Below are positions 1,418-36,579 of a stretch of DNA of 64,000 nt, piece by piece. Position numbers and translations under genes: made by a program. Numbering within the stretch: the stretch's first letter is position 1; each line of letters begins with the position of its first letter. A model generated the notes under the pieces. It made no database searches and was not told where the DNA came from. It saw only the letters and a list, made by a program, of their open reading frames with translations. The DNA is from Fidelibacterota bacterium SCGC AAA298-D23 (GTDB lineage Bacteria; Fidelibacterota; Marinisomatia; Marinisomatales; Marinisomataceae): the NCBI GenBank assembly GCA_000402655.1, contig AQSI01000002.1:83720-147719 (forward strand). Direction: 5' to 3'.

Positions 1418-1461
1418 GGTTGTCTTCATTGCATTTTACTCTTAGGCCTTTTAAAGTAGCT

Positions 1462-1499
1462 GAACGCCCGACCCTCTGTCAATCGGGCGTTCTCTTTTA
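1462..1499 (+). terminator. Rho-independent terminator after the receptor gene
   Basis: GC-rich inverted repeat GAACGCCCGA (1462-1471) / TCGGGCGTTC (1483-1492) followed by TCTTTT. Confidence 0.75.
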
Positions 1500-1574
1500 A
1501 GGAACTTTTTTAAATTTTTTCAGTCAAATTATTAGTACATTTTTTATACTTTTTTACTTATAATTACATGCCTC

Positions 1575-23056: not shown

Positions 23057-23291
23057 TCTGATTGTGAGTAAACATTTTATGGAACGATTTTTTGAACGAG
23101 TGTTAAAATCTGAATGTACTTATTGTCGTTATGATGTGTTAAATAAAATGCAAGAAATGATGCATCATTATGAGAGCAATGCTTTTAAAACATTCAAATC
23201 CTCCTCGAAAAAAGTAAAACTACCATTCGGAAAAAAATATCATGCTGTTGTACAAAATAATACGTTGATTACTTGCTATAAGGTCGATTAA
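23049..23291 (+). CDS. Small DUF4258-like protein (possible toxin), paralog of 24115..24363
   Basis: I prefer ATG 23049 (after GAGAGGTGGG), which overlaps the upstream stop. SKHFMERFFERVLK...KLPFGKKYHAVVQNNTLITCY shares both blocks with the 24115 gene. Confidence 0.55.
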   Translation: MSSLIVSKHFMERFFERVLKSECTYCRYDVLNKMQEMMHHYESNAFKTFKSSSKKVKLPFGKKYHAVVQNNTLITCYKVD

Positions 23292-23433: not shown

Positions 23434-23706
23434 ATGACGCTACATTTATTTAATCCAAATTCAAAAGAATACAAAAAAATAGAACAAATCTATCAGAACA
23501 ATACATGCATGATCTGCAACCTTCCTATGAAGATGCATAGTTTATACTTCTTTTCATTTGACAAGGAAAAGGTAAAAGATGGAGAAATGCATGAAACATA
23601 CCATATTGGATGCAATAATTGCTTTTCGCTATATGACTCAGATTTTGTCTTGGTACAAATTGATATGAGACATTTCATTGGTTATACAATAAGAAATTTA
23701 GCTTAA
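23434..23706 (+). CDS. Small zinc-ribbon protein
   Basis: 90 aa with a GGAAAGGAA SD and two CxxC pairs (CMIC ... CNNC). Confidence 0.5.
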   Translation: MTLHLFNPNSKEYKKIEQIYQNNTCMICNLPMKMHSLYFFSFDKEKVKDGEMHETYHIGCNNCFSLYDSDFVLVQIDMRHFIGYTIRNLA

Positions 23707-24079: not shown

Positions 24080-24114
24080 GATTCATGATTAAAAACTTAA
24101 CAAAGGAACAAAAC

Positions 24115-24363
24115 ATGCAATTATTAAACGGAATAAGAGTTACAAAGCACTTTATAGAACGTTATGCTGAAAGAGTGCTTAAAATTGGTAAATATAATTA
24201 CTCTGCAATGCGAATTAAAGTACTAGAAGATCTTATTGAACGTATGACTATGGTTGAAAAACAAAGCTTTGGTTTATTATGTTCATCTAGAAATTTAAAA
24301 TTTCCCCTTGGTGGAGTCTATAGAATGGTAATTTGTAACAAATCTTTAATAACAATATATTAA
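24115..24363 (+). CDS. Small DUF4258-like protein (possible toxin), paralog of 23049..23291
   Basis: ATG 24115 is preceded by an AAAGGAA SD. The track's ATG 24085 would sit at the predicted transcription start. TKHFIERYAERVLK...KFPLGGVYRMVICNKSLITIY matches the paralog. Confidence 0.6.
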   Translation: MQLLNGIRVTKHFIERYAERVLKIGKYNYSAMRIKVLEDLIERMTMVEKQSFGLLCSSRNLKFPLGGVYRMVICNKSLITIY

Positions 24364-24377
24364 TAATAGGAGTTAAA

Positions 24378-24593
24378 ATGTCATACGATGCAGAAAAAGT
24401 ACAATTAAAAGATATCATTGAAACATTTAAGAGTAAAGTACGTAGATTAAAAGGACTAACAAAATATATGCCTGGATTACTCCATGGAACAGTAGAAATG
24501 ATGGATGCGTTAATTTATAAATATGAAAATGATAAAATTTTAGATGTTGATAGCATACATTTTTATATGAAGGAAAATCATGACAAAAACTAA
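24378..24593 (+). CDS. Hypothetical small protein
   Basis: 71 aa with an AGGAG SD, 14 nt after the preceding stop. Confidence 0.55.
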   Translation: MSYDAEKVQLKDIIETFKSKVRRLKGLTKYMPGLLHGTVEMMDALIYKYENDKILDVDSIHFYMKENHDKN

Positions 24594-25815
24594 CTATTTA
24601 AAGCCAACTCTGCTTAAGACTACTAAAGAATCAAATATATGGTTTGAAAGAGTTTGGAAAGTAGACCCAAGTCTTCATTTGGAGTATACCAAATTACTTT
24701 CTGATATGAAGGAATTTAATAGAGATTCAAGCTTGGTTTACTCAACATTGCTTTCAGTTAATGAAAATGAAAAAAAACATTCGAGCAAAGATATTGATAA
24801 AGTTTTTAACTTAATACCTAATAATCACAATGATGCATGGGAGCAGCTTAATGCAGTTGTAAAAGTTGTTGATTCAAATAAAAAAAAGGCAAAAACATCT
24901 TATGTATTTGGTTCAAGAACTTTCAGAGATCCTTTAAGGAAAAAATTTTTTCTAGCCAAATATAGTGACGGAAAAAACACTTTTTTACATAGCAATCCCG
25001 TTACTAATCATGAAAATAATAAAGATATTGTTATAAATGTTTCACATAATATTAAAACTGACAATCCAACAAAAAAGAAAGGTTTAAATACTTCAAAAGA
25101 ATTATTATCAAAGTATCTTTCTAAAAAACCAATAAAATTCTCAAACTTTAAAAATGAAGAAAATATTGAATATGAGTTTACCTATCCAGTACTTCATTCA
25201 AAAGTTATAACATGTATCAGCTTTATTAAAAGAGCTGTTAGCATTTTTTTTAAATGCCACGGTATTAATTTTTCTTCTATAGATATTGTACCAATCTCAA
25301 ATACAAATTATGAAATATTTATTGCTAGTTCAGAGGCATCTGATGTTAATTCTTTTTGTTCACAGAATTCATATTTCACTTTTAATGGGTATATGGGTCC
25401 TGATGAGGTAGAATGTTCACCACTAGCTAATCATTTTAATTTGTTCTTGAATGAAATTTTTACAAAATCAAATCTCTATTATTTCAATCAAGATCTTTGG
25501 ATTTACTTAACTTTCAATATTTATTCCAGAGATAAATCACTTAGGTTCAATACAATTATGAATAAAAGAATGGAAAGAATAATTAAGACAATTCGATCTC
25601 TAAATAATTTACATCACAAAAATAATTATGAATTTGATAAAAGTGATTTTGATAATTCATATAACAACTTGGATGAAGCAATTAAAGATTATAAAGCTAT
25701 ATATGAACAATGGTTCAAAGATAATGCTATACCAAAATCTCCAGAGGAAGAAATTGAAATGCTAAAAAAAGAATTGGCTGAAAAACAAGAGCTTTTAAAG
25801 AAGTCAAAAAAATAA
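24580..25815 (+). CDS. Hypothetical protein (ORFan, Asn/Lys-rich, C-terminal coiled coil)
   Basis: 411 aa with a 14-nt overlap onto the upstream gene and no motif I recognise. Confidence 0.65.
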   Translation: MTKTNYLKPTLLKTTKESNIWFERVWKVDPSLHLEYTKLLSDMKEFNRDSSLVYSTLLSVNENEKKHSSKDIDKVFNLIPNNHNDAWEQLNAVVKVVDSNKKKAKTSYVFGSRTFRDPLRKKFFLAKYSDGKNTFLHSNPVTNHENNKDIVINVSHNIKTDNPTKKKGLNTSKELLSKYLSKKPIKFSNFKNEENIEYEFTYPVLHSKVITCISFIKRAVSIFFKCHGINFSSIDIVPISNTNYEIFIASSEASDVNSFCSQNSYFTFNGYMGPDEVECSPLANHFNLFLNEIFTKSNLYYFNQDLWIYLTFNIYSRDKSLRFNTIMNKRMERIIKTIRSLNNLHHKNNYEFDKSDFDNSYNNLDEAIKDYKAIYEQWFKDNAIPKSPEEEIEMLKKELAEKQELLKKSKK

Positions 25816-28512
25816 GTGATGAGTAGAATCTTTCCAGACTCAAATTATAATATTTTTGAAGATCTTAATAATCCAAGAAGTAAGAGTGAGTGGGGATATG
25901 GATATGAAAAATCAAGCAATACAGAATTTATTAATTACAAAGAGTTTATAGATAAGCTTGACCAGTATGTTGATTCAAATTTTAAAATATGGCTAGGAAC
26001 TGACCCTTATAACCCTCTTTATTTTTCTGAGATATGCATCTTTGATCAAGAGAACGGAACTTTTCATCTAATTGAATACTTTCCTTTTAAACATCAAGAG
26101 CAAGTTAATTACATTTTCAATCCAAATGCTTTTAAAAGGGGCGTACTTATTAAGGATAGAATTTTTAAAAATAAAAAAAATCCAAAATCTTTTTCAACCA
26201 AAGATCATCATTTGTATCTGAAAAATATTCTTGAACTTAAAAAAATATATGATAACAAGGGTGACAAAGGACAGCTTTCGGACGTTGATGAGAGCAGGAA
26301 AAAAGATATTTTAAATTATAATAATAAGTTTGAAAAACTTTTAAAAGACTATAAGACAATAAAAGATGATCCAGTTAACAGACTGAATAGGTTTTCTTAT
26401 GGAATAACAGATTCCCTAAATATCTCTAACAATGATGCTAAATCATTTAGAGAAAATAACATTTATAAACATTTCTTTTTTGGAAATCTTAACTCAGAAT
26501 ATAAAGAAGATTATTTTATTACATCTGAAGATGAAAAGAAATTTTTTTCATCACAAAAGGCATACAATTACGGAAAAGGTATTAATTATTATGGTAGGGA
26601 AGACTTCCAATTATTGATTGATAAAATAAATAAACAGATAAAAAATCCAATTTGGAATTCCAAAAAACATGTTAAAAAAATAGAATTCAATTTTTTACCT
26701 GTAATAAAAAAAGTTGAAAAGAATAAACCTAAAAAACTTTCAGATATTCAGATAAAACATGTGAATAGAAAAGCTTTTTCAAGTAGGATGAGAATATCAG
26801 GTGTTGCTGGTTCCGGAAAAACTTTTTGTTTAACAACAAGAGCAATGAATTATGCTAATAACGATAAAAATGTTTTGTATACATTCTTTACTTCGTCATT
26901 CAAAAGTTATGTTATACACAACTTAGAAAATCCTGATTTTACCTATAAAAGACGAGTTGGTAATTACAATAAACCGAGTATAGTTGTCAAAAATATTCAT
27001 ATGTTATTTTCAGAAATGATAGACCAATATTATTTACACATTAAGTCTCTAGGTCTTAAAGATGATGAGGGTCTAGATTATAGAAATATCAGAAAAATAA
27101 AGCCCGAAAAAAATAAAAGTTTTGAAGTGGCATTTACAACAAAAATAAATCGTTTAATAAAACATGATGAAAAAGTTTTTTTTGATGCGATGGGAAACGT
27201 TTTTGACTTTGATGCTATAATGGTTGATGAGGGTCAAAATTTTAAAAGCTCATGGTTTTCTGTTTTGCAAAAAGTTTGTTTAAAAAATAGACCAAAAGAA
27301 CAGACTTATGGAGATATGATGGTAGCATTTGATGAAAAACAAAAGCTATTTGGTGATAATGAAGTTGGAGAATCAATAAAGGAACTATCAAAACCCGAAT
27401 TAATAAATGATCCTTTAAATGCGACATATAGAATTCCACCTAATTTGTTTGAAAAGGTAAATATTGTTAGAAAAAAACTTGGTTTGTCAGAAATCGAATA
27501 CATAATTCCTAGTAAAAAAGATTTAGATTTTATGTCTGAAGGAGAATATGAATGGATAAACATACCAAAGAATTTTTCATCTATAGATGATAAATCAGAA
27601 TTTATTGTAAATAATACACTTAAAATAATTAAAAAAAATAGTTTGAAGCTTGGTGACAGTGCTATTATAACAGACGATCATACAATAATGGCTAAAATCC
27701 AAGATTTAATTAACAAGAAAAATCTTCTAGAGAATAATGATGCGCATTTAGAAAAGATTACAGATGAACAAGAAATATTAGATAAAAACAAAAATCACAC
27801 CACTATGATTCTAACAGAATGCCCTGACAAACATAAAGAGAAGCTTCATAATATGCTTTTAAACAGTAATATTGAACCTGGGAAAGATGAATCGTGGTTG
27901 CTACAAGATAATGAATTTAAAATGAAAAGTTATGGAAAGTGGAATCCAGAAACAAGGTCAAGAAAATTAAGAAATGACTACAGCTTGCTTAACACCGATA
28001 AGTATAATTTATTATTCCATTTATATGAGGATGAAGAACAATTACAGGAGTCCATCCTTGATGATTATGAACAGGATATCCCATCTTATGCTATAGATCC
28101 AAAACTTTCAAAAGAAAGTTTAAATTTACTACCTGATGTTAAGTACGAAGTGGCTTACAATTGGAATGAAAATGAGCTAAATACTCATAAAATATCTAGA
28201 AGGGCTCAATGGCTAAATAGGCAATTGAAGGATATTTACGACTTCTCAGATGATAAAGGGTTAATTACTCACACAATAAAAAGCTTTCAAGGACAAGAAT
28301 TACCAAATATTTTTATCTATCTTTCCAGTCAATTCAATAAAGATGGATTAAGAAAAGAGCAAGGAGCTAAATATACATATTGGAAAAGTTCATGGGAATA
28401 TGAAGCTTATGTTAATCAGCTTTTTGTTGCACTTACTAGGTCTAGAAATTCTGCTTGGTTATTTAATGATAGTAGCGAATTAGATTTTATTTCTGAAGAA
28501 TTTAATAGGTGA
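25816..28512 (+). CDS. Superfamily-1 (UvrD/Rep-like) helicase-family ATPase with about 320-aa unknown N-terminal region
   Basis: 898 aa, starting at GTG 25816 or ATG 25819, directly abutting the upstream stop. Motifs are Walker A GVAGSGKTF, motif II IMVDEGQNF, NATYRIP (NYRS-like), IKSFQGQELPNIFIYL and LFVALTRSRNSAWLF. Confidence 0.8.
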   Translation: MMSRIFPDSNYNIFEDLNNPRSKSEWGYGYEKSSNTEFINYKEFIDKLDQYVDSNFKIWLGTDPYNPLYFSEICIFDQENGTFHLIEYFPFKHQEQVNYIFNPNAFKRGVLIKDRIFKNKKNPKSFSTKDHHLYLKNILELKKIYDNKGDKGQLSDVDESRKKDILNYNNKFEKLLKDYKTIKDDPVNRLNRFSYGITDSLNISNNDAKSFRENNIYKHFFFGNLNSEYKEDYFITSEDEKKFFSSQKAYNYGKGINYYGREDFQLLIDKINKQIKNPIWNSKKHVKKIEFNFLPVIKKVEKNKPKKLSDIQIKHVNRKAFSSRMRISGVAGSGKTFCLTTRAMNYANNDKNVLYTFFTSSFKSYVIHNLENPDFTYKRRVGNYNKPSIVVKNIHMLFSEMIDQYYLHIKSLGLKDDEGLDYRNIRKIKPEKNKSFEVAFTTKINRLIKHDEKVFFDAMGNVFDFDAIMVDEGQNFKSSWFSVLQKVCLKNRPKEQTYGDMMVAFDEKQKLFGDNEVGESIKELSKPELINDPLNATYRIPPNLFEKVNIVRKKLGLSEIEYIIPSKKDLDFMSEGEYEWINIPKNFSSIDDKSEFIVNNTLKIIKKNSLKLGDSAIITDDHTIMAKIQDLINKKNLLENNDAHLEKITDEQEILDKNKNHTTMILTECPDKHKEKLHNMLLNSNIEPGKDESWLLQDNEFKMKSYGKWNPETRSRKLRNDYSLLNTDKYNLLFHLYEDEEQLQESILDDYEQDIPSYAIDPKLSKESLNLLPDVKYEVAYNWNENELNTHKISRRAQWLNRQLKDIYDFSDDKGLITHTIKSFQGQELPNIFIYLSSQFNKDGLRKEQGAKYTYWKSSWEYEAYVNQLFVALTRSRNSAWLFNDSSELDFISEEFNR

Positions 28513-28518
28513 CAATTT

Positions 28519-28713
28519 ATGGGCTGCTTTAACACATTATTTTTATTATTACTTGGCGGAATATACTTATTCTGGCCTGATTTAATGCAAGTTGAAGGCT
28601 TTTGGTTTAGTTTTATAGCTGTATGGCTATGTTTTTTTATTTCATGGGCATTATTTGGCGATATAGCAGATGAAATTTCGGGTGTAAATAAATATAAAGA
28701 TGATGAATTCTAA
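28519..28713 (+). CDS. Small two-TM membrane protein
   Basis: 64 aa with two hydrophobic helices and an acidic tail. Confidence 0.55.
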   Translation: MGCFNTLFLLLLGGIYLFWPDLMQVEGFWFSFIAVWLCFFISWALFGDIADEISGVNKYKDDEF

Positions 28714-29077
28714 ATCACTTAATTGGTCTAACTGGAAATTATTACCAAATCCTTCTAAGTCACATAATAGTTTTAGATCGTTAATCATGAAAGCAGTAAG
28801 AAACCCTTCCTATCCAGGAGTTTATCAATTAAAAAACAATGATACGGGTGAATATGTACTTTTTGGGGTAGGTGTTAAGGTAGGAGAGCGTATGTGCTCC
28901 TTAATTCCTAAAGAATACGGTGGTGTTGGACGAAGAAACAACCACTATAAAAGAGATTATGTTTGGAAAAATATAGAATACATTCAGTTTAGAACGATAA
29001 CTACTGAAACACGCAATGAAGCTCTTGAAATAGAAAGATTTTTAAAACATCAAAATATTCATATTTTCAATACATGA
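28700..29077 (+). CDS. GIY-YIG-like nuclease domain protein
   Basis: 125 aa. PGVYQLKNNDTGEYVLFGVG supplies the GIY and YIG elements with the correct spacing. It also has a downstream Arg and the NEALEIERFL catalytic-Glu helix. It overlaps both neighbours. Confidence 0.55.
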   Translation: MMNSKSLNWSNWKLLPNPSKSHNSFRSLIMKAVRNPSYPGVYQLKNNDTGEYVLFGVGVKVGERMCSLIPKEYGGVGRRNNHYKRDYVWKNIEYIQFRTITTETRNEALEIERFLKHQNIHIFNT

Positions 29078-29904
29078 ATTCTAGCGTGAAACCTTTTTTG
29101 AAGTGGGTAGGTGGCAAGTACACTTTAGCAATTGAGCTTAAAAAGCATTTACCAAACAATTTTGATGAGCTTAATTATATTGAACCAATGTTAGGTGGAG
29201 CTGGTATGTTTTTCAATTTGCAACCAAAAAAAGCTATTTTAAGCGATATAAACAAAAAACTTATCATAACCTATCAATCTATCCAAAATAACGTTGAAGG
29301 TGTTATTTCGGAGCTAAAAAAGCATGAATTAAACCACAAAACTAATGAAGATTACTTTTATGATGTAAGAGAGTATTTTAATAAAGGATGTGAAACACGT
29401 GAAGGACTTGCAGCAGCTTTTATATATCTAAATAAAACAAATTTTAATGGATTATATAGAGTTAATAATAAGGGAGAGTTTAATGTTCCAAAGGGAAGAA
29501 CTACCTCGGGTTCTGTTACTATCTGCGATGAAAAAGTATTAAAAAATTGCTCAGATTTGCTTAAAGGTGTTGAACTGTATTGGAAGTCCTATGAAGATGC
29601 TTTAAAAGATTTAAATAAACATTGTTTTGTATATCTAGATCCTCCTTACTTACCACAAACAGATGTCTCATTTACTAAATATTCTAAAGATGGATTTTCA
29701 GTTGAGGATCATCAAATATTATCAAAACATTGTAAAGATTTATCTCAAAGAGGTATAAAGTTTATGATGTCAAATGCTGAAAATGATTATACGTATGAAA
29801 TATATGGTGATTTTTCAATTAAACCACTGACTGTTTATCATTCTCTGGGTCCAGACAAAAAAACAAGAAAAAAGGCAAAGGAATGTATAATTACAAACTA
29901 TTAG
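29074..29904 (+). CDS. Dam-family (alpha-class, D12) N6-adenine DNA methyltransferase
   Basis: 276 aa. PFLKWVGGKY, EPMLGGAGMFF, NFNGLYRVNNKGEFNVP and YLDPPY are collinear with E. coli Dam. Confidence 0.88.
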   Translation: MNSSVKPFLKWVGGKYTLAIELKKHLPNNFDELNYIEPMLGGAGMFFNLQPKKAILSDINKKLIITYQSIQNNVEGVISELKKHELNHKTNEDYFYDVREYFNKGCETREGLAAAFIYLNKTNFNGLYRVNNKGEFNVPKGRTTSGSVTICDEKVLKNCSDLLKGVELYWKSYEDALKDLNKHCFVYLDPPYLPQTDVSFTKYSKDGFSVEDHQILSKHCKDLSQRGIKFMMSNAENDYTYEIYGDFSIKPLTVYHSLGPDKKTRKKAKECIITNY

Positions 29905-29905
29905 T

Positions 29906-30355
29906 TTATTTAGCTGCTTTTTTCATGTAGGAGTAAAGAGTCGTAATTACTTTTTCTTCATCCTCTTGATTTAAAATCTTTAGAAGCTTTTTAATTCCGC
30001 CATTAGCATACTCATGCGAAATATTTTGAATAATTTTTTTATCTTCATCTAAAATTTCAAGCCCTTTTTCTTTAACGGCTATAGATACAATTAAAGCAAC
30101 GGTATTTTTTCGCAAAATAGTGTCAATATTTCCACCTCTTACTTGCTGTAACCAACCGCCATTATTATTTGTGAAAGTTCCTTTTAATTTCAAATTATCT
30201 GTGTAGCCAATAGCTATCGCCATACAAACGACTTGTAATTTATCTATATTATATTTATCAACAATTTCATGTTTAAAAACTTTTTGCCATGTTTCTTCGT
30301 TTTTACTATCAATATAGAAAGCACTTCGTACAAAATTTTGAATATTATTTGCCAT
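29906..30355 (-). CDS. DndE-like / dnd-associated small protein (tentative)
   Basis: 149 aa with a TAATG overlap onto the upstream ATPase. The blocks VVCMAIAIGY ... NNNGGW ... ISHEYANGGIKKLLKIL loosely follow my memory of the DndE pattern. Confidence 0.35.
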   Translation of the reverse strand: MANNIQNFVRSAFYIDSKNEETWQKVFKHEIVDKYNIDKLQVVCMAIAIGYTDNLKLKGTFTNNNGGWLQQVRGGNIDTILRKNTVALIVSIAVKEKGLEILDEDKKIIQNISHEYANGGIKKLLKILNQEDEEKVITTLYSYMKKAAK

Positions 30356-32475
30356 TATATTGTTCTTTTATGGTAGTTAGTCTCAATTGCATTATCTTTA
30401 TCTAAGCTTGAAATTTTTATTTCATAGAAGTTTGAGACATAGGGTTTAATAATCTTGAAAACATCATCAGTGAGTTCAGAGTCAGTAAAAAAGAAGGTAG
30501 TTTGAATATCTTTATCTTTCAAGTTAACAAAATTTTCCATTATTCCTTTTCTGTATTCTAAACTAACCGCACTAAGAGGCGTATCAATAAACATTGGAAA
30601 TCTTAATTCCAAACCTTCTTGCATGGACTGCATGTAACAATATCCTGTAAGAAATTGTTCCCCTGTTGACATGAGAGGAGAACCATTCAATGGAAGTAAA
30701 TTATTATTATTCTTATCACTAACATTTAAGTTGTAATTTTCAGAGATTTTAGCATTCCAAAAACCTTTTTTTAGCGTTGTTGTTTCAATTAATTTTCTAA
30801 ACCTATCATTAGTAACTTTTAAGGCTTCCAGTCTTGTGTCCTCAATAGCTGGCTCTAGAAGATTAATTGATTTTTCAAGAAAATTTAATTGAATATATGC
30901 TTCTGAAGAACTTGATATATTTTTTTTAATATTTTTAATTTCCTCATTGAGTTCTCTTATAAAATCAATATTAGTTTCAACAATAGCTTCTTTTTTAGTT
31001 AAATCTCTATTAGCGACTTTAAGCCTTATTTCTGCCATATCATGTTTTTTTTGAATTTCTTTCATTGACTTTTTATCATAATTTCCAATTTCATTCATAT
31101 GATCTGCTCTTTGTTTATCTAAGTTACTCAGTTTATTTTTAATTTTTTTTAATTCGTCATATGAATTTTTTGCATTCTCGAAGATTATGGTTGGACTGTC
31201 ATTTAAAATTCCAGCTGTAAATTCTTTGGTATGGGTTGCAATATTCGCAATTTGACTTTTTCTTTTTGATGCAACTCCTTGATTATATTCTTTTATTTTA
31301 TCTAGAAATTTTTCCTTATTAAAATTTTTAATCCAATTTATTTTTGCATAAAATTGTTTATCTTTTTTTAATTTTCCATCAATATCTTTAATTACAAGTT
31401 TATCCTCATCAATAATTAAATCTAATATGTCTTCAACATTTTCAAGGGCAGGAGGGGGTAATTCTTTATTTTCAATTTTTTTTGCAATTAATGTATCAAA
31501 ATCATCTATTTCTTTTCTTAGAACAACATTTGCAAATGATTCTAATATATCTGTTTTATACTTATTATCTATTTCGTTGTATTTTTCATTTAATGCTACC
31601 TTTTGAATATCAATTATTTCAACTTTATTATAAATTTTTTCTGTTGCCTCATTTTTTTTTATGATTTCAACGTAGTCATTGATTTCATTCTTAATGCTTA
31701 ATATTTCCTCCTCAAGTTCGCCAATATCATTTACAAGCTTATTACCGAGTTCAATTTTTTCTGTTACAGAATTTTGAGTTCTAACAAGAATAGCTTCTGG
31801 GCTGGTTCCTGTCGATTTTGGTATTTTTTTAACAAGCTCAGATCTTAAATTTTTAAGATTTTTTAAAACACTTGTCATATCAGTAATTCCTGTTAATATG
31901 TTTAAATGAGATTCAATTGAGGATGATTTGTTTGCTTTAACAAAATCTTGAATGTCCTGACCATCAAAAAAGAAGAAGTTTTGAATTGATCCATTGATAA
32001 TATTATTTTCAATATACTGTTCTGCGCTGTCATCCTCTCTGGATTGCAATCCTTCAGAATTATAAAAAGTAACATCTAATTGAGCTTTTTTAGGTAAATA
32101 CTTTAACTCAACTGGTTTTGTGTCCGTCTTATCTTTTATCTTTTGAAAAACTTCTGAACGTTCAACAGTTTTTTCATTATTATTTTCGTCGAGAAATATA
32201 ATTTTTACAGAAACTGTTTCTTCTTCATTAATTAGCATTTGTTGTGCAACTTTAAAATTTAGTCTTTCATTTTGAAATTCTTTTTGTCTGATATTTGATA
32301 ATCTAGGTTCTTTATTAAAAAGGCACCAACTTATTGCCCTGTAAGTACTAGTCTTTCCAAATCCATTATTTCCTAGAATTATGTTAAAAGGCTTATTTTT
32401 TGAAGTGCTCAAATCGAGCTCATGAAAACCCTTATATTGTCTAAAATTATTTAAATGAATTTTTTTAATTTTCAT
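30355..32475 (-). CDS. DndD-like SMC/ABC-type ATPase
   Basis: 706 aa. The N-terminus is MKIKKIHLNNFRQYKG...ILGNNGFGKTS (Walker A), followed by about 400 aa of coiled coil. The C-terminus has the STGEQ signature, then PMFIDTPLS and FFFTDSEL, as in DndD (xIDTPLGRLD...TDxE). Confidence 0.65.
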   Translation of the reverse strand: MKIKKIHLNNFRQYKGFHELDLSTSKNKPFNIILGNNGFGKTSTYRAISWCLFNKEPRLSNIRQKEFQNERLNFKVAQQMLINEEETVSVKIIFLDENNNEKTVERSEVFQKIKDKTDTKPVELKYLPKKAQLDVTFYNSEGLQSREDDSAEQYIENNIINGSIQNFFFFDGQDIQDFVKANKSSSIESHLNILTGITDMTSVLKNLKNLRSELVKKIPKSTGTSPEAILVRTQNSVTEKIELGNKLVNDIGELEEEILSIKNEINDYVEIIKKNEATEKIYNKVEIIDIQKVALNEKYNEIDNKYKTDILESFANVVLRKEIDDFDTLIAKKIENKELPPPALENVEDILDLIIDEDKLVIKDIDGKLKKDKQFYAKINWIKNFNKEKFLDKIKEYNQGVASKRKSQIANIATHTKEFTAGILNDSPTIIFENAKNSYDELKKIKNKLSNLDKQRADHMNEIGNYDKKSMKEIQKKHDMAEIRLKVANRDLTKKEAIVETNIDFIRELNEEIKNIKKNISSSSEAYIQLNFLEKSINLLEPAIEDTRLEALKVTNDRFRKLIETTTLKKGFWNAKISENYNLNVSDKNNNNLLPLNGSPLMSTGEQFLTGYCYMQSMQEGLELRFPMFIDTPLSAVSLEYRKGIMENFVNLKDKDIQTTFFFTDSELTDDVFKIIKPYVSNFYEIKISSLDKDNAIETNYHKRTI

Positions 32476-32672
32476 TTTTTTCTTTTTCTTTGTTTTGAAA
32501 TTTGATTATTTAAAGAATCAATATAGTCTTTTCTGTACTGTGTAATAGTTTGATAGTTTTGAATTGATTGAATATTAATTAAATGCTTTAAAAAGTGGTA
32601 ATTTTCTATATTATCATCCTGTTCAGCTATTTTTTTAATTATTTCTAATCCTTTATCTGAAAATGATTTCAT
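32472..32672 (-). CDS. Small helical protein with basic tail
   Basis: 66 aa with ATGA overlaps on both sides and a C-terminal KQRKRKK. Confidence 0.55.
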   Translation of the reverse strand: MKSFSDKGLEIIKKIAEQDDNIENYHFLKHLINIQSIQNYQTITQYRKDYIDSLNNQISKQRKRKK

Positions 32673-34726
32673 TCTTCAATTTTCCATTCTTCTTTTAAAT
32701 TTTCTATCATGATTGAATTTTCATCATGATTTAACGAAATATGAGAAAATTCATCAATTCTTTCTAGTTGTTTTTTAATTAAGTTTTGTTGCATAAGAAA
32801 TGATATACTTGGATCTGCAGGGGGGATACAAATAAAATCATAAATATCAGCAATTTTTTTAGATTCTTTATATGGTTTTCTAAGGACTCGTCCACGTCTT
32901 TGAATATATTGCTTTGAATTATTTGAGCTAGCAAGTATAATTGCAGTTTCAGCATTTGGAATATCTACACCTTCATCAAGACAATTCATTGCAATAATTG
33001 CATCAAGTTTCTGATTTTTAAATCTGCTCATCATATCCTTTCTAGCTTGTGTTGATGTACCAGATATAAATCTCATATATCTCATACCTTTTTCATTTAA
33101 AATTGACTGTATATTTTCTAAAAAATCTTTTGTGCCGCAATATATAAAACCTCCATTTAAGTCGTAGTTTAATTCGCTAATTAAATTTTCGAATGCCTCA
33201 TATTTATTGTATGCTGTTTTTATTATTTCTGCTCTTTGTAATAATAGATTTTCATAATGTTTCTTAAACTCTGGCTTATCATAAATAGGAGCCATCTTTC
33301 TAGTTAATTCTTTATAATCTTGTAACTCATCATTTGTTAAATCAACAAGATTAATATGATATCTATATGGGCATAGAAAGCCATTTTCAATTCCCCATGC
33401 CAAATCTTTTTCATAAAAACATCCTTCTTTATCAAAATATGTATATATCAAATCACTACCTTCATCATCAAAATATCTTTTTGGTGTTGCGCTTAATGCA
33501 ATGCGACAATCAAAATTATTAATTAAACCTTGTTTCCATTTTGGAGCACCTGCATTATGTACTTCGTCACATATTATAGCCAAAGGTTTTTGACATTCAT
33601 TAATGATTTTTTTATAATCGTCTTTATAGAAAGACTGATAAGTAACTAGACATATTATATTATCTTCAAATTCTATATTAAGATTGGTTATAGCTTGCTG
33701 TAATTCTTTTTTGCTTCTATCTCTTAAAATAAAAGGTTGAATACCTAAAATTTTTTCAATTTCATCAGCCCATTGATAAATTAGCGTTTCACTAGGAACA
33801 ACAATTGAGCAATAGTATGCATTATCAACTGATTTAGCATATTCTTTTAATGCAAAAAGGGAAGTATACGTTTTACCTAATCCAGTCGCTAGCGCAAGAA
33901 TACCTTTGAAATTATTTTGAACAAGTTTATCGATTGCTTCTTGTTGGTACTCACGCGGACCACTTTCCTCAACAATAATTTCTTGTGATTCTGAATTAAT
34001 TTCAATTAAATCTTTTGTCAGTTGATCGCTAGCAACTAATACATCTTGAGTAGTTTTTAGGTCATTATTTATTAACAGTCTTTCTTTGCAAACTTTCGGA
34101 AAATCTACAACTTCAACTTTATCGGCAAGATTATTCCAGTAAATATCAAATTTTCTGAAACTATTTTCTACTCTTTTTTTATCAATTTCGTTATCCCAAG
34201 ATGTAAAAATATTTGCACTCTCAATCTGATTAAGAAGTGAATTTGCTGACTCATTAATTGATCCATTATAATTCAATCTATTTCCATCAGGATCTTCGAA
34301 ATTTCCCCATTTTGAGTGTAACATACCACCATCATCAGGCTTCTTAAATCCAATCTTTATTTCAAGAAAATCATTTGCTATCATCCAGCCTAGTATCTTT
34401 CTTGGATTATCTTTCAACATAAGTTCAAGTTTTTTTATATCATCTAATAGCTCATCATCAAACTGATTTGTATAACCAGCTTTTATAGACTCATAATCTT
34501 CTTCGCTATTAATATGTTTGCTAAAAATAAGTCGATATTTACCTTTATTTTGAATGAATTGAGACATTCCTTCTGCTACAGCTGATAACGATTTAGGACT
34601 AAAATATCCCGCAACTCTATCATACCGCATAGAGTTCTTTAATGCAGGAAGGTAAAAATCGCTCAGAAAATTATCTTCTAAGCCTCCATCAAAATGTTCA
34701 CTAATTTTTAAATTTTTTAAATTCAC
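32669..34726 (-). CDS. PLD-family nuclease domain fused to a DExH (SF2, restriction 'res'-type) helicase
   Basis: 685 aa with a GTG start. It has a single HKD motif (HSKWGNFEDPDGNRLNYNGSINES). Helicase motifs are I ATGLGKTY, II ICDEVHNAG, III LSATPKR, V LDEGVDIPN and VI QRRGRVLR. Confidence 0.8.
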   Translation of the reverse strand: MNLKNLKISEHFDGGLEDNFLSDFYLPALKNSMRYDRVAGYFSPKSLSAVAEGMSQFIQNKGKYRLIFSKHINSEEDYESIKAGYTNQFDDELLDDIKKLELMLKDNPRKILGWMIANDFLEIKIGFKKPDDGGMLHSKWGNFEDPDGNRLNYNGSINESANSLLNQIESANIFTSWDNEIDKKRVENSFRKFDIYWNNLADKVEVVDFPKVCKERLLINNDLKTTQDVLVASDQLTKDLIEINSESQEIIVEESGPREYQQEAIDKLVQNNFKGILALATGLGKTYTSLFALKEYAKSVDNAYYCSIVVPSETLIYQWADEIEKILGIQPFILRDRSKKELQQAITNLNIEFEDNIICLVTYQSFYKDDYKKIINECQKPLAIICDEVHNAGAPKWKQGLINNFDCRIALSATPKRYFDDEGSDLIYTYFDKEGCFYEKDLAWGIENGFLCPYRYHINLVDLTNDELQDYKELTRKMAPIYDKPEFKKHYENLLLQRAEIIKTAYNKYEAFENLISELNYDLNGGFIYCGTKDFLENIQSILNEKGMRYMRFISGTSTQARKDMMSRFKNQKLDAIIAMNCLDEGVDIPNAETAIILASSNNSKQYIQRRGRVLRKPYKESKKIADIYDFICIPPADPSISFLMQQNLIKKQLERIDEFSHISLNHDENSIMIENLKEEWKIEE

Positions 34727-35349
34727 TAAAATATTTCTGTTTGTTCTTTTAAAGATATTTCTTTTGTTTTTTCGTTTATATAAAAACTATCTGGTGCATT
34801 CAAGCCAATTAAAATTATTGGTGTAGGCACGATGCTTTGATATGGCTTAAAATATTCTATAAAGTTCTCAAAAGTTCCAACTGCTCCATCAAAATTGCCA
34901 ATTTTTTTTAAGTTGCTAGTAGCACAAATGATGACACCTAAGCTCGTTTGGATTTCTTTTTTTACATGATTTAGTTCACTAGAAAGTACTGGCTTCATGA
35001 TGTTATGTGAAATTACTGTACTGTGATTGAATGCTACCTCGAGAGCTAGTTCATTTTTTACAAAATCTAAACGCCATTTTCTATTTGTCTTATAAGCTTT
35101 ATCGTAAAAAATAGCAGATTCAGAGCTCCAACCTAGATTAAGTAATTTTTCCTTGAGAATTTGATTTATAGGTTCTGAAAGGCTTTTAATATTTGGCCTT
35201 TCTTGTTTTCTGAAGTTAAACGCATTAATTAGGTCTTTATCAGAAATTGAATTAATTACAGATATTAATTCATCGTAATCTTCTTTATATTTTAAATCAC
35301 TTTTAACTATTTGATCAGAGTGTCTATGATAGTATAGTGTATGTTTCAT
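34726..35349 (-). CDS. BglII/BstYI/BamHI-like type II restriction endonuclease (tentative)
   Basis: 207 aa. WRLDFVKNELALEVAF has the same D-x8-E-x-X spacing as the BglII core IDFGKRDTLVEVQF, and the C-terminal TPIILIGL resembles BglII VPIRLVGL (from memory). It lies adjacent to a C5 methyltransferase. Confidence 0.55.
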   Translation of the reverse strand: MKHTLYYHRHSDQIVKSDLKYKEDYDELISVINSISDKDLINAFNFRKQERPNIKSLSEPINQILKEKLLNLGWSSESAIFYDKAYKTNRKWRLDFVKNELALEVAFNHSTVISHNIMKPVLSSELNHVKKEIQTSLGVIICATSNLKKIGNFDGAVGTFENFIEYFKPYQSIVPTPIILIGLNAPDSFYINEKTKEISLKEQTEIF

Positions 35350-35373
35350 AAATAAATTTATATAATTTAATAA
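35350..35373. promoter_or_regulatory. 24-bp divergent control region between endonuclease operon and methyltransferase
   Basis: The sequence is AAATAAATTTATATAATTTAATAA. TATAAT (35361-35366) ends 7 nt before the methyltransferase ATG, and TATAAA-like elements occur on the other strand. Neither side has an SD. Confidence 0.4.
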
Positions 35374-36579
35374 ATGCCAAAATTAAAAGTAGTAGAATTA
35401 TTTGCCGGAGTAGGAGGGTTTCGATTAGGTCTTGAGAAATCAGGCCATAAAACTGTTTGGGCTAATCAATGGGAACCAAAAACAAAGGTTCAACATGCAT
35501 TTGATTGTTATAGCGCGCATTTTGATGATTCATTTAAAGATTTAAATACTGATATTAACGAAGTTGATTACACTAAAGTGCCCAATCATGACTTACTTGT
35601 TGGCGGATTTCCTTGCCAAGATTACTCAGTTGCTACTGTCCAAGCACAGGGAATAGAAGGGAAAAAGGGAGTATTATGGTGGGCAATTGAGAAGATTTTA
35701 AGAGAAAAAAGACCTAAATATGTACTTCTTGAAAACGTAGATAGATTGCTACGATCTCCAACACAGCAAAGAGGGCGTGATTTTGGTGTTATTTTGTCAT
35801 GTTTGCATAATCTTGGGTATTGTGTTGAGTGGAGAGTTGTTAACGCCGCAGAATATGGATTTCCTCAAAAAAGACGTAGAACTTTCTTTTTTGCAGCTCA
35901 AAAAGGTACAAAGTGGTACAAAAATATGGAAAAAAGGCATTTAGAGCCTGATTTTATCCACAATAAAGGATTTTTTAGTGATGAATTTAAAGTCAAACAG
36001 GACAACACGCTCGAAATCAACCTTTTTGATGAGGTTAAAAATATAGCTGATACGCAATCTATAAGCGACACATTCTCATATCATTTTTTGAATTCTGGCT
36101 TTTTATTTAATACTACAATTAGTACAAAGAAGGTTTTTCCAGATTATAATGGAAAACAGACTGTTTTAGGAGATATATTAGATAAAACTGTTGATGATAA
36201 GTATTTTGTCAGGGATGAAGCACAAATTTGGAAATGGAAAGAACTAAAAGGCGCTAAAAAGAGAAAAGTTAAGCGAAAAGATGGTGGTACATTTTTTTAT
36301 TCAGAAGGTTCAATGCCATTTCCTGAGCCTTTAGAAGCTCCAGCGCGTACAATTATTACATCTGAAGGCGGACAAACGCCAAGTAGATTCAAACATATTA
36401 TCATGGATCCAAAGAAAAATGAATATAGAACGTTAACACCAGATGAAGTTGAAAAAATATGCGGGTTTCCAGCTGGATGGACAAATACTGGAATGCCCGA
36501 TAATTGGAGATATTTTTGTATGGGTAATGCATTGGTTGTAGGTCTTATTGAAAAGATGGGAAAAACTTTATTAAATTAA
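35374..36579 (+). CDS. DNA (cytosine-5)-methyltransferase
   Basis: 401 aa with motifs I ELFAGVGGF, IV GGFPCQDYS, VI LLENVDRLL, VIII FPQKRRRTFF, IX TLTPDEVEKICGFPAGWT and X MGNALVVGL. Confidence 0.93.
   Translation: MPKLKVVELFAGVGGFRLGLEKSGHKTVWANQWEPKTKVQHAFDCYSAHFDDSFKDLNTDINEVDYTKVPNHDLLVGGFPCQDYSVATVQAQGIEGKKGVLWWAIEKILREKRPKYVLLENVDRLLRSPTQQRGRDFGVILSCLHNLGYCVEWRVVNAAEYGFPQKRRRTFFFAAQKGTKWYKNMEKRHLEPDFIHNKGFFSDEFKVKQDNTLEINLFDEVKNIADTQSISDTFSYHFLNSGFLFNTTISTKKVFPDYNGKQTVLGDILDKTVDDKYFVRDEAQIWKWKELKGAKKRKVKRKDGGTFFYSEGSMPFPEPLEAPARTIITSEGGQTPSRFKHIIMDPKKNEYRTLTPDEVEKICGFPAGWTNTGMPDNWRYFCMGNALVVGLIEKMGKTLLN

What the first reader, a model, noticed from the sequence alone, without database searches (positions are those of the whole stretch)
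29906..32475. DndD-like and DndE-like genes in dnd order but without any phosphorothioation (DndA/B/C) genes
The 706-aa ATPase starts MKIKKIHLNNFRQYKG with Walker A GNNGFGKTS. It has a long coiled coil. Its C-terminus has STGEQ...PMFIDTPLS...FFFTDSEL, which matches my memory of the DndD-specific C-terminus (IDTPLGRLD...TDxE). The next gene (149 aa, TAATG-coupled) loosely follows the DndE pattern and sits where dndE follows dndD. In Dnd systems, DndD is described as an ATPase with DNA-nicking-related activity. DndE is described as a binder of nicked DNA that supports sulfur insertion by DndA/C. Here no cysteine desulfurase or PAPS-reductase-like gene is present anywhere in the 64 kb. The pair may therefore have been co-opted for a function independent of sulfur modification.
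Basis: partly seen in the sequence, partly recalled or inferred. Interest (0 to 1): 0.7.

Follow-up and report, generated by a model that had tools for sequence, protein, structure and literature searches.

The report
PbeABCD defence operon flanked by methylases
The two "DndD-like/DndE-like" genes are the last two genes of a known four-gene anti-virus system (PbeABCD), here without sulfur-modification genes and sitting between two DNA methylase genes, a situation already described in the literature, so it is a tidy example rather than a new kind of system.

Summary
A 706-aa coiled-coil ABC ATPase and a TAATG-coupled 149-aa protein lie at 29906-32475 on the minus strand. No cysteine desulfurase, DndC/PAPS-reductase, DndE or Ssp gene occurs in any frame of the 64 kb.

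The pair is not an orphan. It is pbeC-pbeD, the end of a translationally coupled five-gene operon: a BglII/BstYI-family restriction endonuclease, PbeA (HKD nuclease plus SF2 helicase), PbeB (66 aa), PbeC and PbeD.
- PbeA matches PADLOC PbeA at 4e-196.
- The ATPase scores 260 bits to a PbeC profile and 139 bits to a DndD profile.
- The 149-aa protein matches canonical PbeD (hhalign 99.2%). Its link to classical DndE is only weak and structural.

A C5 methylase and a Dam methylase bracket the operon.

Solitary and methylase-linked PbeABCD ("CxC ABC ATPase-DndE") systems are already published (Xiong 2019; Rakesh 2024).

Local peculiarities:
- The CxC zinc hook of PbeC is replaced by L-V-I.
- The endonuclease slot is swapped among Marinimicrobia relatives while the methylases stay 97-98% identical.
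- All linked enzymes point to GATC, and GATC is the most depleted palindrome.

Verdict: a new member of a known kind, of modest interest.

The parts
35374..36579 (+). C5 cytosine DNA methyltransferase (Dcm-type), transcribed divergently from the operon with a 24-bp gap
   Evidence: Pfam PF00145 at 2e-68, TIGR00675 at 1e-72, PADLOC MTase_II at 1.5e-155. It is 97% identical to the methylase next to a Sau3AI-like enzyme in L001. It is 46% identical to the dcm paired with a BglII/BstYI enzyme on plasmid pPB01.
34726..35349 (-). BglII/BstYI-family type II restriction endonuclease (207 aa), first gene of the operon; its TAG stop overlaps the GTG start of pbeA (TAGTG)
   Evidence: Pfam PF09195 at 5.6e-9, above the curated cutoff. 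It is 43-47% identical to plasmid genes annotated as BglII/BstYI family endonuclease. The D-x8-E-x motif LDFVKNELALEVAF lies at aa 94-107. Junction sequence.
32669..34726 (-). PbeA: HKD (phospholipase-D family) nuclease domain plus SF2 helicase (685 aa)
   Evidence: PADLOC PbeA at 4.4e-196; TIGR04095 dnd_restrict_1 at 1.6e-107; ResIII and Helicase_C domains. H137, K139, D145 and G155-S-x-N158 are invariant in five homologues. Helicase motifs I, II and VI were located.
32472..32672 (-). PbeB: 66-aa small protein, ATGA-coupled to pbeA and to pbeC
   Evidence: It has the position and size of H. jeotgali PbeB (66 aa, PMC6459918). Homologues occur only in the Marinimicrobia clade. A 52-84 aa ORF occupies this slot in most of the metagenome PbeA loci where pbeC is present. 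Junction sequences.
30355..32475 (-). PbeC: Rad50/SMC-like coiled-coil ABC ATPase of the 'CxC' clade (706 aa), lacking the CxC motif
   Evidence: PADLOC PbeC at 1.2e-34. A profile of 55 PbeA-adjacent PbeCs gives 259.8 bits, against 139.3 bits for a DndD profile. AF2 model and Rad50/SMC/JetC fold matches.
31384..31410 (-). Coiled-coil apex of PbeC (aa 356-364, DEDKLVIKD), where canonical PbeCs carry C-x-C
   Evidence: In the alignment, CLC (L013) and CIC (L017) align with LVI (window), ITL (L001) and LVI (L004). PbeC has only two cysteines, at positions 51 and 613. In the AF2 model, residues 359-361 form a short strand of low confidence.
29906..30355 (-). PbeD: 149-aa protein, TAATG-coupled to pbeC; the putative DNA-binding partner of PbeC (clade-2 DndE cognate according to PMC10853773)
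   Evidence: A profile of 46 canonical PbeDs gives 38.7 bits, E 7e-13. hhalign gives 99.2% probability, E 1.3e-19 over 128 columns. AF2 model pLDDT is 79.6. The best PDB fold hits are DndE 5wtu and 4lrv, but with E>=1.4.
29074..29904 (+). Dam-family N6-adenine methyltransferase, convergent with pbeD (1 bp between the two stop codons)
   Evidence: TIGR00571 at 1.1e-77 and PF02086 at 3.9e-58. The closest solved relatives are all GATC enzymes: DpnM at 1.3e-48, E. coli Dam and T4 Dam. It holds the same position in L001 (98% identical), L002/L003 and L004.

Best explanation
Shown: the region is a PbeABCD-type anti-invader operon (also called the CxC-ABC-ATPase/DndE-anchored system). It lies in a variable defence island of a Marinimicrobia (SAR406)-like chromosome, between an epimerase gene and leuS. 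The gene order is BglII/BstYI-family endonuclease, PbeA, PbeB, PbeC, PbeD, with every junction overlapping by one to four bases. No phosphorothioation gene lies nearby. A C5 methylase and a Dam methylase bracket the operon. Inferred mechanism, from the family literature and the anatomy: a PbeC dimer acts as a Rad50/SMC-like ATP-driven clamp. Together with the small DNA-binding PbeD it scans DNA for a short motif and reads its modification state. On unmarked, foreign DNA it engages PbeA, whose helicase translocates and whose intact HKD site nicks or cuts the DNA or blocks replication. PbeB acts as a small regulator. Inferred for this locus: the self-mark is not phosphorothioate but base methylation of GATC, either GAT(m5C) from the Dcm gene, G(m6A)TC from the Dam gene, or both. 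The co-transcribed type II endonuclease adds a classical restriction activity protected by the same methylation.
For: Identity: PbeA matches PADLOC PbeA at 4.4e-196 and PbeC is the best PADLOC hit for the ATPase. My PbeC profile scores 260 bits against 139 bits for my DndD profile. PbeD matches canonical PbeD by hhalign at 99.2%. The 66-aa and 149-aa sizes match H. jeotgali PbeB (66 aa) and PbeD (152 aa) (PMC6459918). The gene junctions are TAGTG, ATGA, ATGA and TAATG.

Functional integrity: Walker A, signature and Walker B motifs, the HKD site and the helicase motifs are all present. dN/dS is 0.08-0.10 for all four pbe genes against L002.

No phosphorothioation genes in any frame of the window, and none in the flanks of four syntenic relatives.

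Methylation link: Dcm lies beside the operon in the window, L001, L002 and L005, and a different C5 methylase does so in L004. Dam lies beside pbeD wherever that side is visible. In L005, Dcm abuts pbeA with no endonuclease between them.

The same Dcm (97% identical) is paired with a Sau3AI/MutH-like enzyme in L001 and a BglII/BstYI-like enzyme here. Both enzyme families cut GATC-core sites. Dam's solved relatives are all GATC enzymes.

GATC is the most depleted palindrome in the window (158 observed vs 227 expected, z -4.6) and in L001, L004 and L005.

The only characterised Pbe systems pair with GpsATC phosphorothioation (PMC6459918). Published surveys already report methylase-linked solitary Pbe/CxC systems.
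Against: Adjacency in a defence island does not prove functional coupling. Dcm plus a BglII/BstYI endonuclease is a self-sufficient type II cassette, found in the same divergent layout on a Bacillota plasmid without pbeBCD. Dcm and Dam do not co-diverge with Pbe: between the window and L001 they are 97-98% identical while the Pbe proteins are 47-63% identical. That fits conserved flanks around a swappable core as well as it fits coupling. In the one experimental system, PbeABCD needed phosphorothioate and did not visibly cut DNA (PMC6459918). The rest of this genome is unseen. GATC specificity of Dcm, and any specificity of PbeD, are inferences only. The five syntenic loci are related, so they are not independent observations.
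Confidence: 0.55

Rival explanations
1. A phosphorothioate-dependent PbeABCD whose dndCDEA or sspABCD partner lies elsewhere in the genome, outside the 64-kb window. The neighbouring methylases would belong to unrelated restriction-modification systems.
For: In H. jeotgali, PbeABCD lost its activity when PT was abolished (PMC6459918). In my sample of 24 metagenome PbeA loci with at least 3 kb on both sides, 18 carry Dnd- or Ssp-type genes next door. Xiong et al. found that dndCD and pbeAC evolve independently, so linkage in trans is conceivable.
Against: No PT gene occurs in the window or in the held flanks of L001-L005. All Pbe-adjacent modification genes in this clade are methylases. In the metagenome sample, PbeCs without the CxC motif (0 of 5) never sit next to PT genes, whereas 27 of 50 CxC-bearing ones do. 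The whole genome could not be searched.
Confidence: 0.2
2. A modification-independent, abortive-infection-type system. The PbeCD complex or the small PbeB senses a phage cue (for example loss or cleavage of PbeB) and releases the PbeA HKD nuclease on any DNA, self included. The methylases serve only the type II endonuclease.
For: Rakesh et al. propose this as an alternative, with the small protein as a negative regulator (PMC10853773). PbeB and PbeC are the most diverged parts of the operon, as expected for parts that meet phage proteins: 80% and 71% identity against L002, where the neighbours are 93-97% identical. One metagenome locus had no modification gene detected by my motif and seed screen; a later Pfam scan found a C5 methylase there.
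Against: The high divergence of pbeB and pbeC comes with high dS (1.2-2.1) and a dN/dS of about 0.1. That points to recombination rather than positive selection. In the characterised system, PT-modified virus escaped, which shows self/non-self discrimination by modification (PMC6459918). A methylase sits next to the cassette in all clade members seen.
Confidence: 0.15
3. An inactive relic: a solitary Pbe cassette stranded without its modification partner and no longer doing anything.
For: Xiong et al. raise this possibility for the 320 of 553 solitary pbeAC pairs. The zinc-hook cysteines of PbeC are lost.
Against: All ORFs are intact with coupled junctions. The catalytic motifs are retained. 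dN/dS is about 0.1 against L002 and 0.14-0.54 against L001. The four-gene layout persists down to 37% PbeC identity in L004.
Confidence: 0.05
4. One reading: a genuine DndD-DndE modification pair that lost DndA/B/C and was co-opted on its own.
For: DndD models hit the ATPase over its full length (PADLOC DndD 3.9e-32; TIGR03185 2.6e-24). DndE chains are the best, though weak, fold matches of the 149-aa protein.
Against: The TIGR03185 score of 85.7 is far below its cutoff of 245.85. The PbeC profile beats the DndD profile by 120 bits. The 149-aa protein has no Pfam DndE hit, and hhalign to bona fide DndE gives 1-2% probability. The pair is preceded by coupled pbeA and pbeB.
Confidence: 0.03

Closest known systems
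PbeABCD of Haloterrigena jeotgali A29 (Xiong et al. 2019, Nat Commun 10:1688, PMC6459918)
   Same: The same four genes in the same order. The domain content matches: PLD/HKD plus ResIII and Helicase_C; a 66-aa protein; an AAA_23-type coiled-coil ATPase; a protein of about 150 aa. It forms one transcription-unit-like block. Solitary copies near methylases were counted in that paper (155 of 320 solitary pbeAC).
   Different: Here there is no adjacent dndCDEA. The host is bacterial (Marinimicrobia-like) and AT-rich. A type II endonuclease gene is coupled in front of pbeA. Dcm and Dam genes flank the cassette. PbeC is about 40 aa longer and lacks the CxC motif. Sequence identity to other PbeA-linked loci is only about 30-36% for PbeA.
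CxC-clade ABC ATPase / clade-2 DndE anchored systems with cytosine methylases (Rakesh, Aravind et al. 2024, NAR 52:1005, PMC10853773)
   Same: An HKD plus SF2-helicase protein, a small fast-evolving protein, an ABC ATPase and a DndE cognate. PT genes are absent and a C5 methylase is next door. NERD-type and other nucleases lie at the borders (a NERD plus UvrD-like 898-aa protein at 25816-28512).
   Different: The name-giving CxC zinc hook is replaced by L-V-I. The paper's text does not mention a Dam-type methylase, or a BglII/BstYI-like or MutH/Sau3AI-like endonuclease within the operon. No MTaX1 domain gene was seen here.
DndD-DndE of canonical DndABCDE phosphorothioation systems
   Same: A coiled-coil ABC ATPase followed by a small, probably DNA-binding partner. 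Walker A, signature and Walker B motifs have similar spacing. The two are sister clades according to PMC10853773.
   Different: The score falls below the DndD family cutoff. The small protein does not match the DndE Pfam model. There is no DndC or DndA. The pair is linked to a nuclease-helicase rather than to modification enzymes.
Rad50-Mre11/SbcCD and Wadjet JetABCD
   Same: These are the best fold matches of the PbeC model (Rad50 at 1.5e-18; JetC and SMC at about 1e-11). They share the logic of a coiled-coil ABC ATPase clamp that hands DNA to an associated nuclease.
   Different: There is no sequence-level family membership. The partners differ (HKD-helicase and PbeD instead of Mre11 or JetA/B/D). 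The coiled coil is shorter (about 350 aa). There is no zinc hook or hinge.

Membership tests
PbeABCD (Xiong 2019) | Four co-directional genes in the order pbeA-pbeB-pbeC-pbeD, forming one unit | tested here: met
   The ORFs are 32669-34726, 32472-32672, 30355-32475 and 29906-30355, all on the minus strand. Their junctions overlap as ATGA, ATGA and TAATG. The same order is seen in the metagenome PbeA loci where the contig extends past pbeA.
PbeABCD (Xiong 2019) | PbeA is a PLD/HKD domain plus a ResIII/DEAD helicase plus Helicase_C | tested here: met
   PADLOC PbeA matches at 4.4e-196 over residues 3-670. ResIII matches at 3.9e-27 and Helicase_C at 4.6e-19. NF042964 (PLD-like anti-phage protein) covers residues 22-335. 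The HKD residues are invariant. The Pfam PLDc model itself gave no hit at E<=0.01.
PbeABCD (Xiong 2019) | PbeB is a small protein of about 60-70 aa between pbeA and pbeC | tested here: met
   The ORF is 66 aa, the same length as in H. jeotgali. There is no profile hit; homology is detectable only inside the clade.
PbeABCD (Xiong 2019) | PbeC-type ATPase, closer to PbeC than to DndD | tested here: met
   It scores 259.8 bits to a profile of 55 PbeA-adjacent PbeCs that includes none from this clade. It scores 139.3 and 94.1 bits to two DndD profiles. In PADLOC it scores 118.1 bits to PbeC and 110 bits to DndD.
PbeABCD (Xiong 2019) | PbeD family protein directly after pbeC | tested here: met
   A profile of 46 canonical PbeDs gives E 7.1e-13. 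hhalign gives 99.2% probability, E 1.3e-19.
PbeABCD (Xiong 2019) | Antiviral activity that depends on DNA phosphorothioation, with adjacent dndCDEA | tested here: not met
   No dnd or ssp gene occurs in 64 kb. Adjacency is absent in 58% of published pbeAC pairs, so it does not define the gene family. The dependence of activity on PT cannot be tested with these tools.
CxC-clade ABC ATPase (Rakesh 2024) | [quoted passage not shown] | tested here: not met
   The aligned apex reads K-L-V-I-K, where L013 and L017 read C-L-C and C-I-C. There is no cysteine between residues 52 and 612. In my metagenome sample, 50 of 55 PbeA-linked PbeCs have CxC and 5 lack it. The protein is therefore a hook-less offshoot of the clade by sequence, not a typical member by motif.
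DndD (TIGR03185) | Score above the curated equivalog cutoff | tested here: not met
   The score is 85.7 bits against a cutoff of 245.85.
DndE (Pfam PF08870; two ribbon-helix-helix repeats) | Sequence match to the DndE model | tested here: not met
   No Pfam hit was found for any of 11 clade members at E<=10. My DndE HMM, built from Pfam-verified DndE domains, gives E 0.084 and 2.8 bits. hhalign gives 0.2-1.8% probability.
DndE (Pfam PF08870; two ribbon-helix-helix repeats) | DndE-like fold | tested here: inconclusive
   The AF2 model has pLDDT 79.6. DndE chains 5wtu_B and 4lrv are the top and recurrent PDB matches (8 of 38 hits; TM 0.47-0.56 by target; rmsd about 5 A). But E is 1.4-9.9 and the probability is at most 0.38. 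DSSP finds no strands in the monomer model. The assignment of PbeD to 'clade-2 DndE' rests on PMC10853773.
Type II restriction-modification (BglII/BstYI endonuclease plus C5 methylase) | Cognate endonuclease-methylase gene pair | tested here: met
   PF09195 and PF00145 both match, and the genes are divergent and 24 bp apart. An orthologous pair (47% and 46% identical) has the same layout on plasmid pPB01. Enzyme activity and recognition site cannot be tested.

The most novel reading that the evidence does not exclude
In this Marinimicrobia lineage the Pbe machine has switched its self-mark from GpsATC phosphorothioate to methylated GATC (m5C from Dcm, m6A from Dam, or both). The two conserved methylase genes act as fixed 'modification bookends'. 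Between them, alternative restriction cores are swapped by recombination: divergent pbeABCD alleles, and BglII-like, Sau3AI-like or no endonuclease. Loss of the PbeC zinc hook would accompany the PT-independent mode. In my small sample hook-less PbeCs never neighbour PT genes, and elsewhere they neighbour a B12-radical-SAM gene instead.
Probability: 0.3. Interest if true: 0.6.

Novelty: new member of a known kind. Interest (0 to 1): 0.3.

Why it matters
What solitary PbeABCD cassettes do without phosphorothioation is an open question. More than half of all known copies are solitary, and both papers on the family raise the question. This locus and its syntenic relatives form a compact natural experiment. 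The same two methylases surround cassettes that differ in Pbe allele and in the endonuclease. Every specificity clue converges on GATC, which is also the motif phosphorothioated in the only Pbe system studied experimentally. Cloning about 7.5 kb (29074-36579), with and without each methylase, would test directly whether Pbe can read base methylation. Beyond that, the finding is an ordinary instance of a catalogued defence system.

Tried and rejected
- Pfam, NCBIfam and PADLOC gave no hit for the 66-aa and 149-aa proteins, even at lenient thresholds and for all clade members.
- The word-indexed homologue search found only 5 close relatives of PbeD and 8 of PbeC. The exhaustive phmmer search of 1.8 billion proteins found only 7 PbeD relatives. 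The link to canonical PbeD had to be made through loci fetched with PbeA.
- A PbeD profile searched against PDB sequences found no DndE.
- Looking up the window's own PbeC by exact sequence found no source contig, so the rest of the genome could not be examined for dnd or ssp genes.
- The genome-contig scan with the PbeC alignment returned mostly Bacteroidota DndC-DndD-(DndE fusion) loci, not Pbe loci. These were useful only as a source of bona fide DndC, DndD and DndE sequences.
- The promoter and terminator scan was uninformative in this AT-rich DNA: 51 promoter-like sites against 45.6 expected.
- No tRNA gene lies near the island, and no integrase was seen.
- I considered and rejected LmuB (Lamassu) for the ATPase: PADLOC gives 55 bits against 118 for PbeC. 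I also rejected a plain SMC or Rad50 assignment, which holds at the fold level only.
- I considered faster evolution of PbeC by positive selection. It is rejected because dS is also high and dN/dS is about 0.1.
Full report
**Observation.** All quoted motifs are present: Walker A GNNGFGKTS at aa 35-43, STGEQ at 603-607, PMFIDTPLS at 627-635 and FFFTDSEL at 661-668. The genes overlap as TAATG. An AlphaFold2 model (pLDDT 77.5) shows a split ABC head joined by helices 226-335 and 387-567. Its best PDB fold matches are Rad50 (1.5e-18), SMC proteins and JetC.

No phosphorothioation gene is in the window.
- Pfam scans of the ORFs of 250 aa or more, and of the island's small ORFs, show housekeeping genes on both sides (thrS, pheS, folD, leuS, nusA and others). 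No Aminotran_5 or PAPS_reduct domain appears.
- My own DndC and DndE profiles, and cysteine-desulfurase and SspB-like seeds taken from fetched loci, found nothing in any six-frame segment at E<=1.

**What it is.** The pair is the tail of a longer operon. Upstream on the same strand lie three genes:
- a 66-aa ORF (32472-32672);
- a 685-aa protein (32669-34726);
- a 207-aa BglII/BstYI-family endonuclease (34726-35349).

The junctions read TAGTG, ATGA, ATGA and TAATG.

The 685-aa protein matches PADLOC PbeA at 4.4e-196 over its full length and TIGR04095 ('DNA phosphorothioation system restriction enzyme') at 1.6e-107. Its HKD nuclease residues (H137, K139, D145, G155-S-x-N158) are invariant across five homologues, and helicase motifs I, II and VI are intact.

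The ATPase's best PADLOC hits are PbeC models (1.2e-34), narrowly ahead of DndD (3.9e-32). It scores 85.7 bits to TIGR03185 DndD, far below the cutoff of 245.85.

To separate the two clades I fetched 80 metagenome loci with a PbeA alignment. From them I built a profile of 55 full-length ATPases lying directly after pbeA-pbeB. I built DndD profiles from Bacteroidota DndC-DndD-DndE loci, verified by Pfam. The window's ATPase scores 259.8 bits to PbeC, against 139.3 and 94.1 bits to DndD.

The 149-aa protein has no hit in Pfam, NCBIfam or PADLOC. But a profile of 46 proteins encoded directly after canonical PbeCs finds it at 7e-13. Profile-profile alignment gives 99.2% probability, E 1.3e-19 over 128 columns, with a shared EEYANGG motif. 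The sizes 66 aa and 149 aa match H. jeotgali PbeB (66 aa) and PbeD (152 aa) (PMC6459918). The locus is therefore pbeABCD.

**Is PbeD 'DndE-like'?** Sequence does not show it here. No Pfam DndE hit was found for 11 clade members. Profile-profile probability against bona fide DndE domains is 0.2-1.8%. The PDB sequence search is negative.

Fold gives a hint only. The AF2 model (pLDDT 79.6) has DndE chains 5wtu_B and 4lrv as its top and recurrent Foldseek matches (TM 0.47-0.56 by target). But E is at least 1.4 and probability is at most 0.38. Rakesh et al. 2024 assign PbeD to 'clade-2 DndE' and PbeC to the 'CxC' sister clade of DndD (PMC10853773). I rely on them for that step.

**Surroundings.** A C5 methylase (35374-36579) is transcribed divergently, 24 bp from the endonuclease gene. 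A Dam-family methylase (29074-29904) ends 1 bp from the pbeD stop. The block lies in an island of about 14 kb (roughly 22.4-36.6 kb). The island is low in G+C and sits between an epimerase gene and leuS.

The nearest genome locus is Marinimicrobia SCGC AAA160-I06 (L004). It has the same flanks (epimerase and LeuS, both 77% identical) and a pbeABCD with only 37% PbeC identity.

Five syntenic loci show a mosaic:

| Locus | Gene in front of pbeA | C5 methylase | Dam | PbeA/B/C/D identity to window |
|---|---|---|---|---|
| L002/L003 | BglII-like endonuclease (97% identical) | Dcm 96% (L002; off-contig in L003) | 89-91% (partial gene) | 94 / 82 / 71 / 93% |
| L001 | Sau3AI/MutH-like endonuclease (PF02976; PDB Sau3AI 4.4e-13) | Dcm 97% | 98% | 63 / 49 / 47 / 55% |
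| L005 | none; Dcm abuts pbeA | Dcm 92% | side not visible | PbeA 63%, PbeB 48% |
| L004 | two helicase-like genes | a different C5 methylase plus a PD-(D/E)XK nuclease, between pbeD and Dam | 55% | 52 / 49 / 37 / 45% |

The housekeeping epimerase is only 77% identical between the window and L001.

All pbe genes are under purifying selection: dN/dS is 0.08-0.10 against L002. However, pbeB and pbeC have dS of 1.2-2.1, against 0.3-0.5 for pbeA, pbeD and the endonuclease. That indicates recombination inside the operon.

**Specificity clues.**
- Dam's solved relatives (DpnM, E. coli Dam, T4 Dam) all methylate GATC.
- One and the same Dcm is paired with a Sau3AI-like enzyme in L001 and a BglII/BstYI-like enzyme here. 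Both families cut GATC-core sites. Established knowledge of these families is that Sau3AI is blocked by GAT(m5C). The simplest inference is that Dcm makes GAT(m5C).
- An orthologous dcm plus BglII/BstYI pair (46% and 47% identical) has the same layout on Psychrobacillus plasmid pPB01. This shows the pair is also a stand-alone type II cassette.
- GATC is the most under-represented palindrome in the window: 158 observed against 226.8 expected, z -4.6. It remains so without the island. It is also the most depleted in L001, L004 and L005 separately (combined z -5.3).
- In all four haloarchaea with DndCDEA-PbeABCD, the PT motif is GpsATC (PMC6459918).

**Peculiarity of PbeC.** Canonical PbeCs carry C-x-C at the mid-point of the coiled coil: CLC in L013, CIC in L017, and 50 of 55 metagenome PbeCs. 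The window and its clade have L-V-I or I-T-L at the aligned position, and no cysteine anywhere in the coiled coil.

The five hook-less metagenome PbeCs have no PT gene in their flanks, whereas 27 of 50 hook-bearing ones do. They are instead followed by a B12-binding radical SAM gene. The sample is small and the contigs are short, so this is a lead and not a result.

**Mechanism.** Shown here: gene content, intact catalytic motifs, operon coupling, purifying selection, absence of PT genes in cis, and methylase bracketing.

Inferred from the literature on the family and on Rad50/SMC/Wadjet-type machines:
- A PbeC dimer with PbeD scans DNA and reads a motif's modification state.
- PbeA translocates, and then nicks or cuts the DNA or blocks replication.
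- PbeB regulates.

Inferred for this locus: methylated GATC replaces GpsATC as the self-mark, and the co-transcribed endonuclease adds classical restriction under the same protection. My confidence is above 0.9 for the identity and about 0.4 for the methylation-reading step.

Rivals:
- PT genes lie elsewhere in the genome (0.2).
- A modification-independent abortive-infection mode, with PbeB as sensor (0.15).
- An inactive relic (0.05).
- A true DndDE pair (0.03).

**Comparison with what is known, and novelty.** Xiong et al. reported that 320 of 553 pbeAC pairs lack nearby dndCD and that 155 of those lie near methylases. They proposed pairing with methylation. Rakesh et al. described CxC-ATPase/DndE systems with an HKD-helicase, a small protein and C5 methylases instead of PT genes.

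Not described in those texts, as far as my searches show:
- the hook-less PbeC;
- a type II endonuclease coupled into the operon and swapped among relatives;
- the Dam and Dcm 'bookends';
- the convergence on GATC.

I rate the locus a new member of a known kind, with interest 0.3.

Noticed in passing
L090:5766-7130, L125:8879-9976, L137:6674-7933, L143:5394-6701 (also L103:5907-7187, L109:10746-12110): A sub-branch of metagenome pbeABCD loci carries a 365-454 aa B12-binding radical SAM gene directly after pbeD on the same strand (PF02310 plus PF04055 in the four proteins scanned by Pfam; L103 and L109 are assigned by their shared N-terminal motif only). Five of the six have a PbeC without the CxC motif, and none shows dnd, ssp or methylase genes in the flanks held. 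This could be a third kind of modification partner. The main text of PMC10853773 mentions 'radical SAM' only for DndC.
   Followed up: partly
L013:619-6270 and about 20 gut-metagenome loci (e.g. L114, L116, L123, L126): Many pbeABCD cassettes sit next to an Ssp-like set rather than dndCDEA. The set comprises a DUF4007-like 292-aa protein, a 1200-aa protein, a cysteine desulfurase and a PAPS-reductase-like protein.
   Followed up: no
window 29906-36579 compared with L002 and L001: The operon is a mosaic. Against L002, pbeB and pbeC have dS of 1.2-2.1, whereas pbeA, pbeD and the endonuclease have 0.3-0.5, all at dN/dS of about 0.1. Against L001, Dam (dS 0.15, 98% aa identity) and Dcm (97%) are far more similar than the housekeeping epimerase (dS 1.7, 77%). 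The methylase genes look recently shared, and the core between them looks exchanged.
   Followed up: partly
whole window; L001, L004, L005: GATC is the most depleted palindrome. The observed/expected ratio is 0.70 in the window and 0.58-0.66 in three related loci (z -4.6, and -5.3 combined). This indicates long-standing GATC-directed restriction pressure in the lineage.
   Followed up: yes
window 24580-28512 (+): A 411-aa protein with no family hit is followed by an 898-aa protein that matches the PADLOC candidate 'C3a187, NERD+UvrD' (3.2e-20) and weakly matches SF1 helicase motifs. It is probably a separate defence gene pair in the same island. The island relatives L001 and L004 lack it.
   Followed up: no
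window 22998-23291 and 24085-24363 (+): Two small paralogous ORFs (97 and 92 aa) share a KHF(I/M)ER(Y/F)(A/F)ERVLK motif and have no family hit. A 90-aa ORF (23434-23706) and a 64-aa membrane ORF (28519-28713) are 91-94% identical in L001. They travel with the Dam gene.
   Followed up: no
L006:8658-13637 and about 48 other Bacteroidota loci (L007-L083): These loci share a conserved DndC (PAPS_reduct) - DndD - 525-aa protein layout. The last protein is a DndE domain (PF08870, 7e-19) fused to a HerA/FtsK-like ATPase (AAA_10, HerA_C).
   Followed up: no
L165 (plasmid pPB01, NZ_CP031224.1) 85-3154: The orthologous dcm and BglII/BstYI endonuclease pair on this Bacillota plasmid has a 333-aa 'phospholipase D family protein' gene between the two. 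It is not similar in sequence to PbeA (E 0.83). It is another HKD protein in the same slot.
   Followed up: partly
L017:8455-12380 (Thermoplasmata MAG): This pbe cassette has a PbeA of only 448 aa, which is the helicase part without the HKD nuclease domain. It is followed by a 68-aa PbeB, a CxC-bearing PbeC and a 139-aa PbeD.
   Followed up: no
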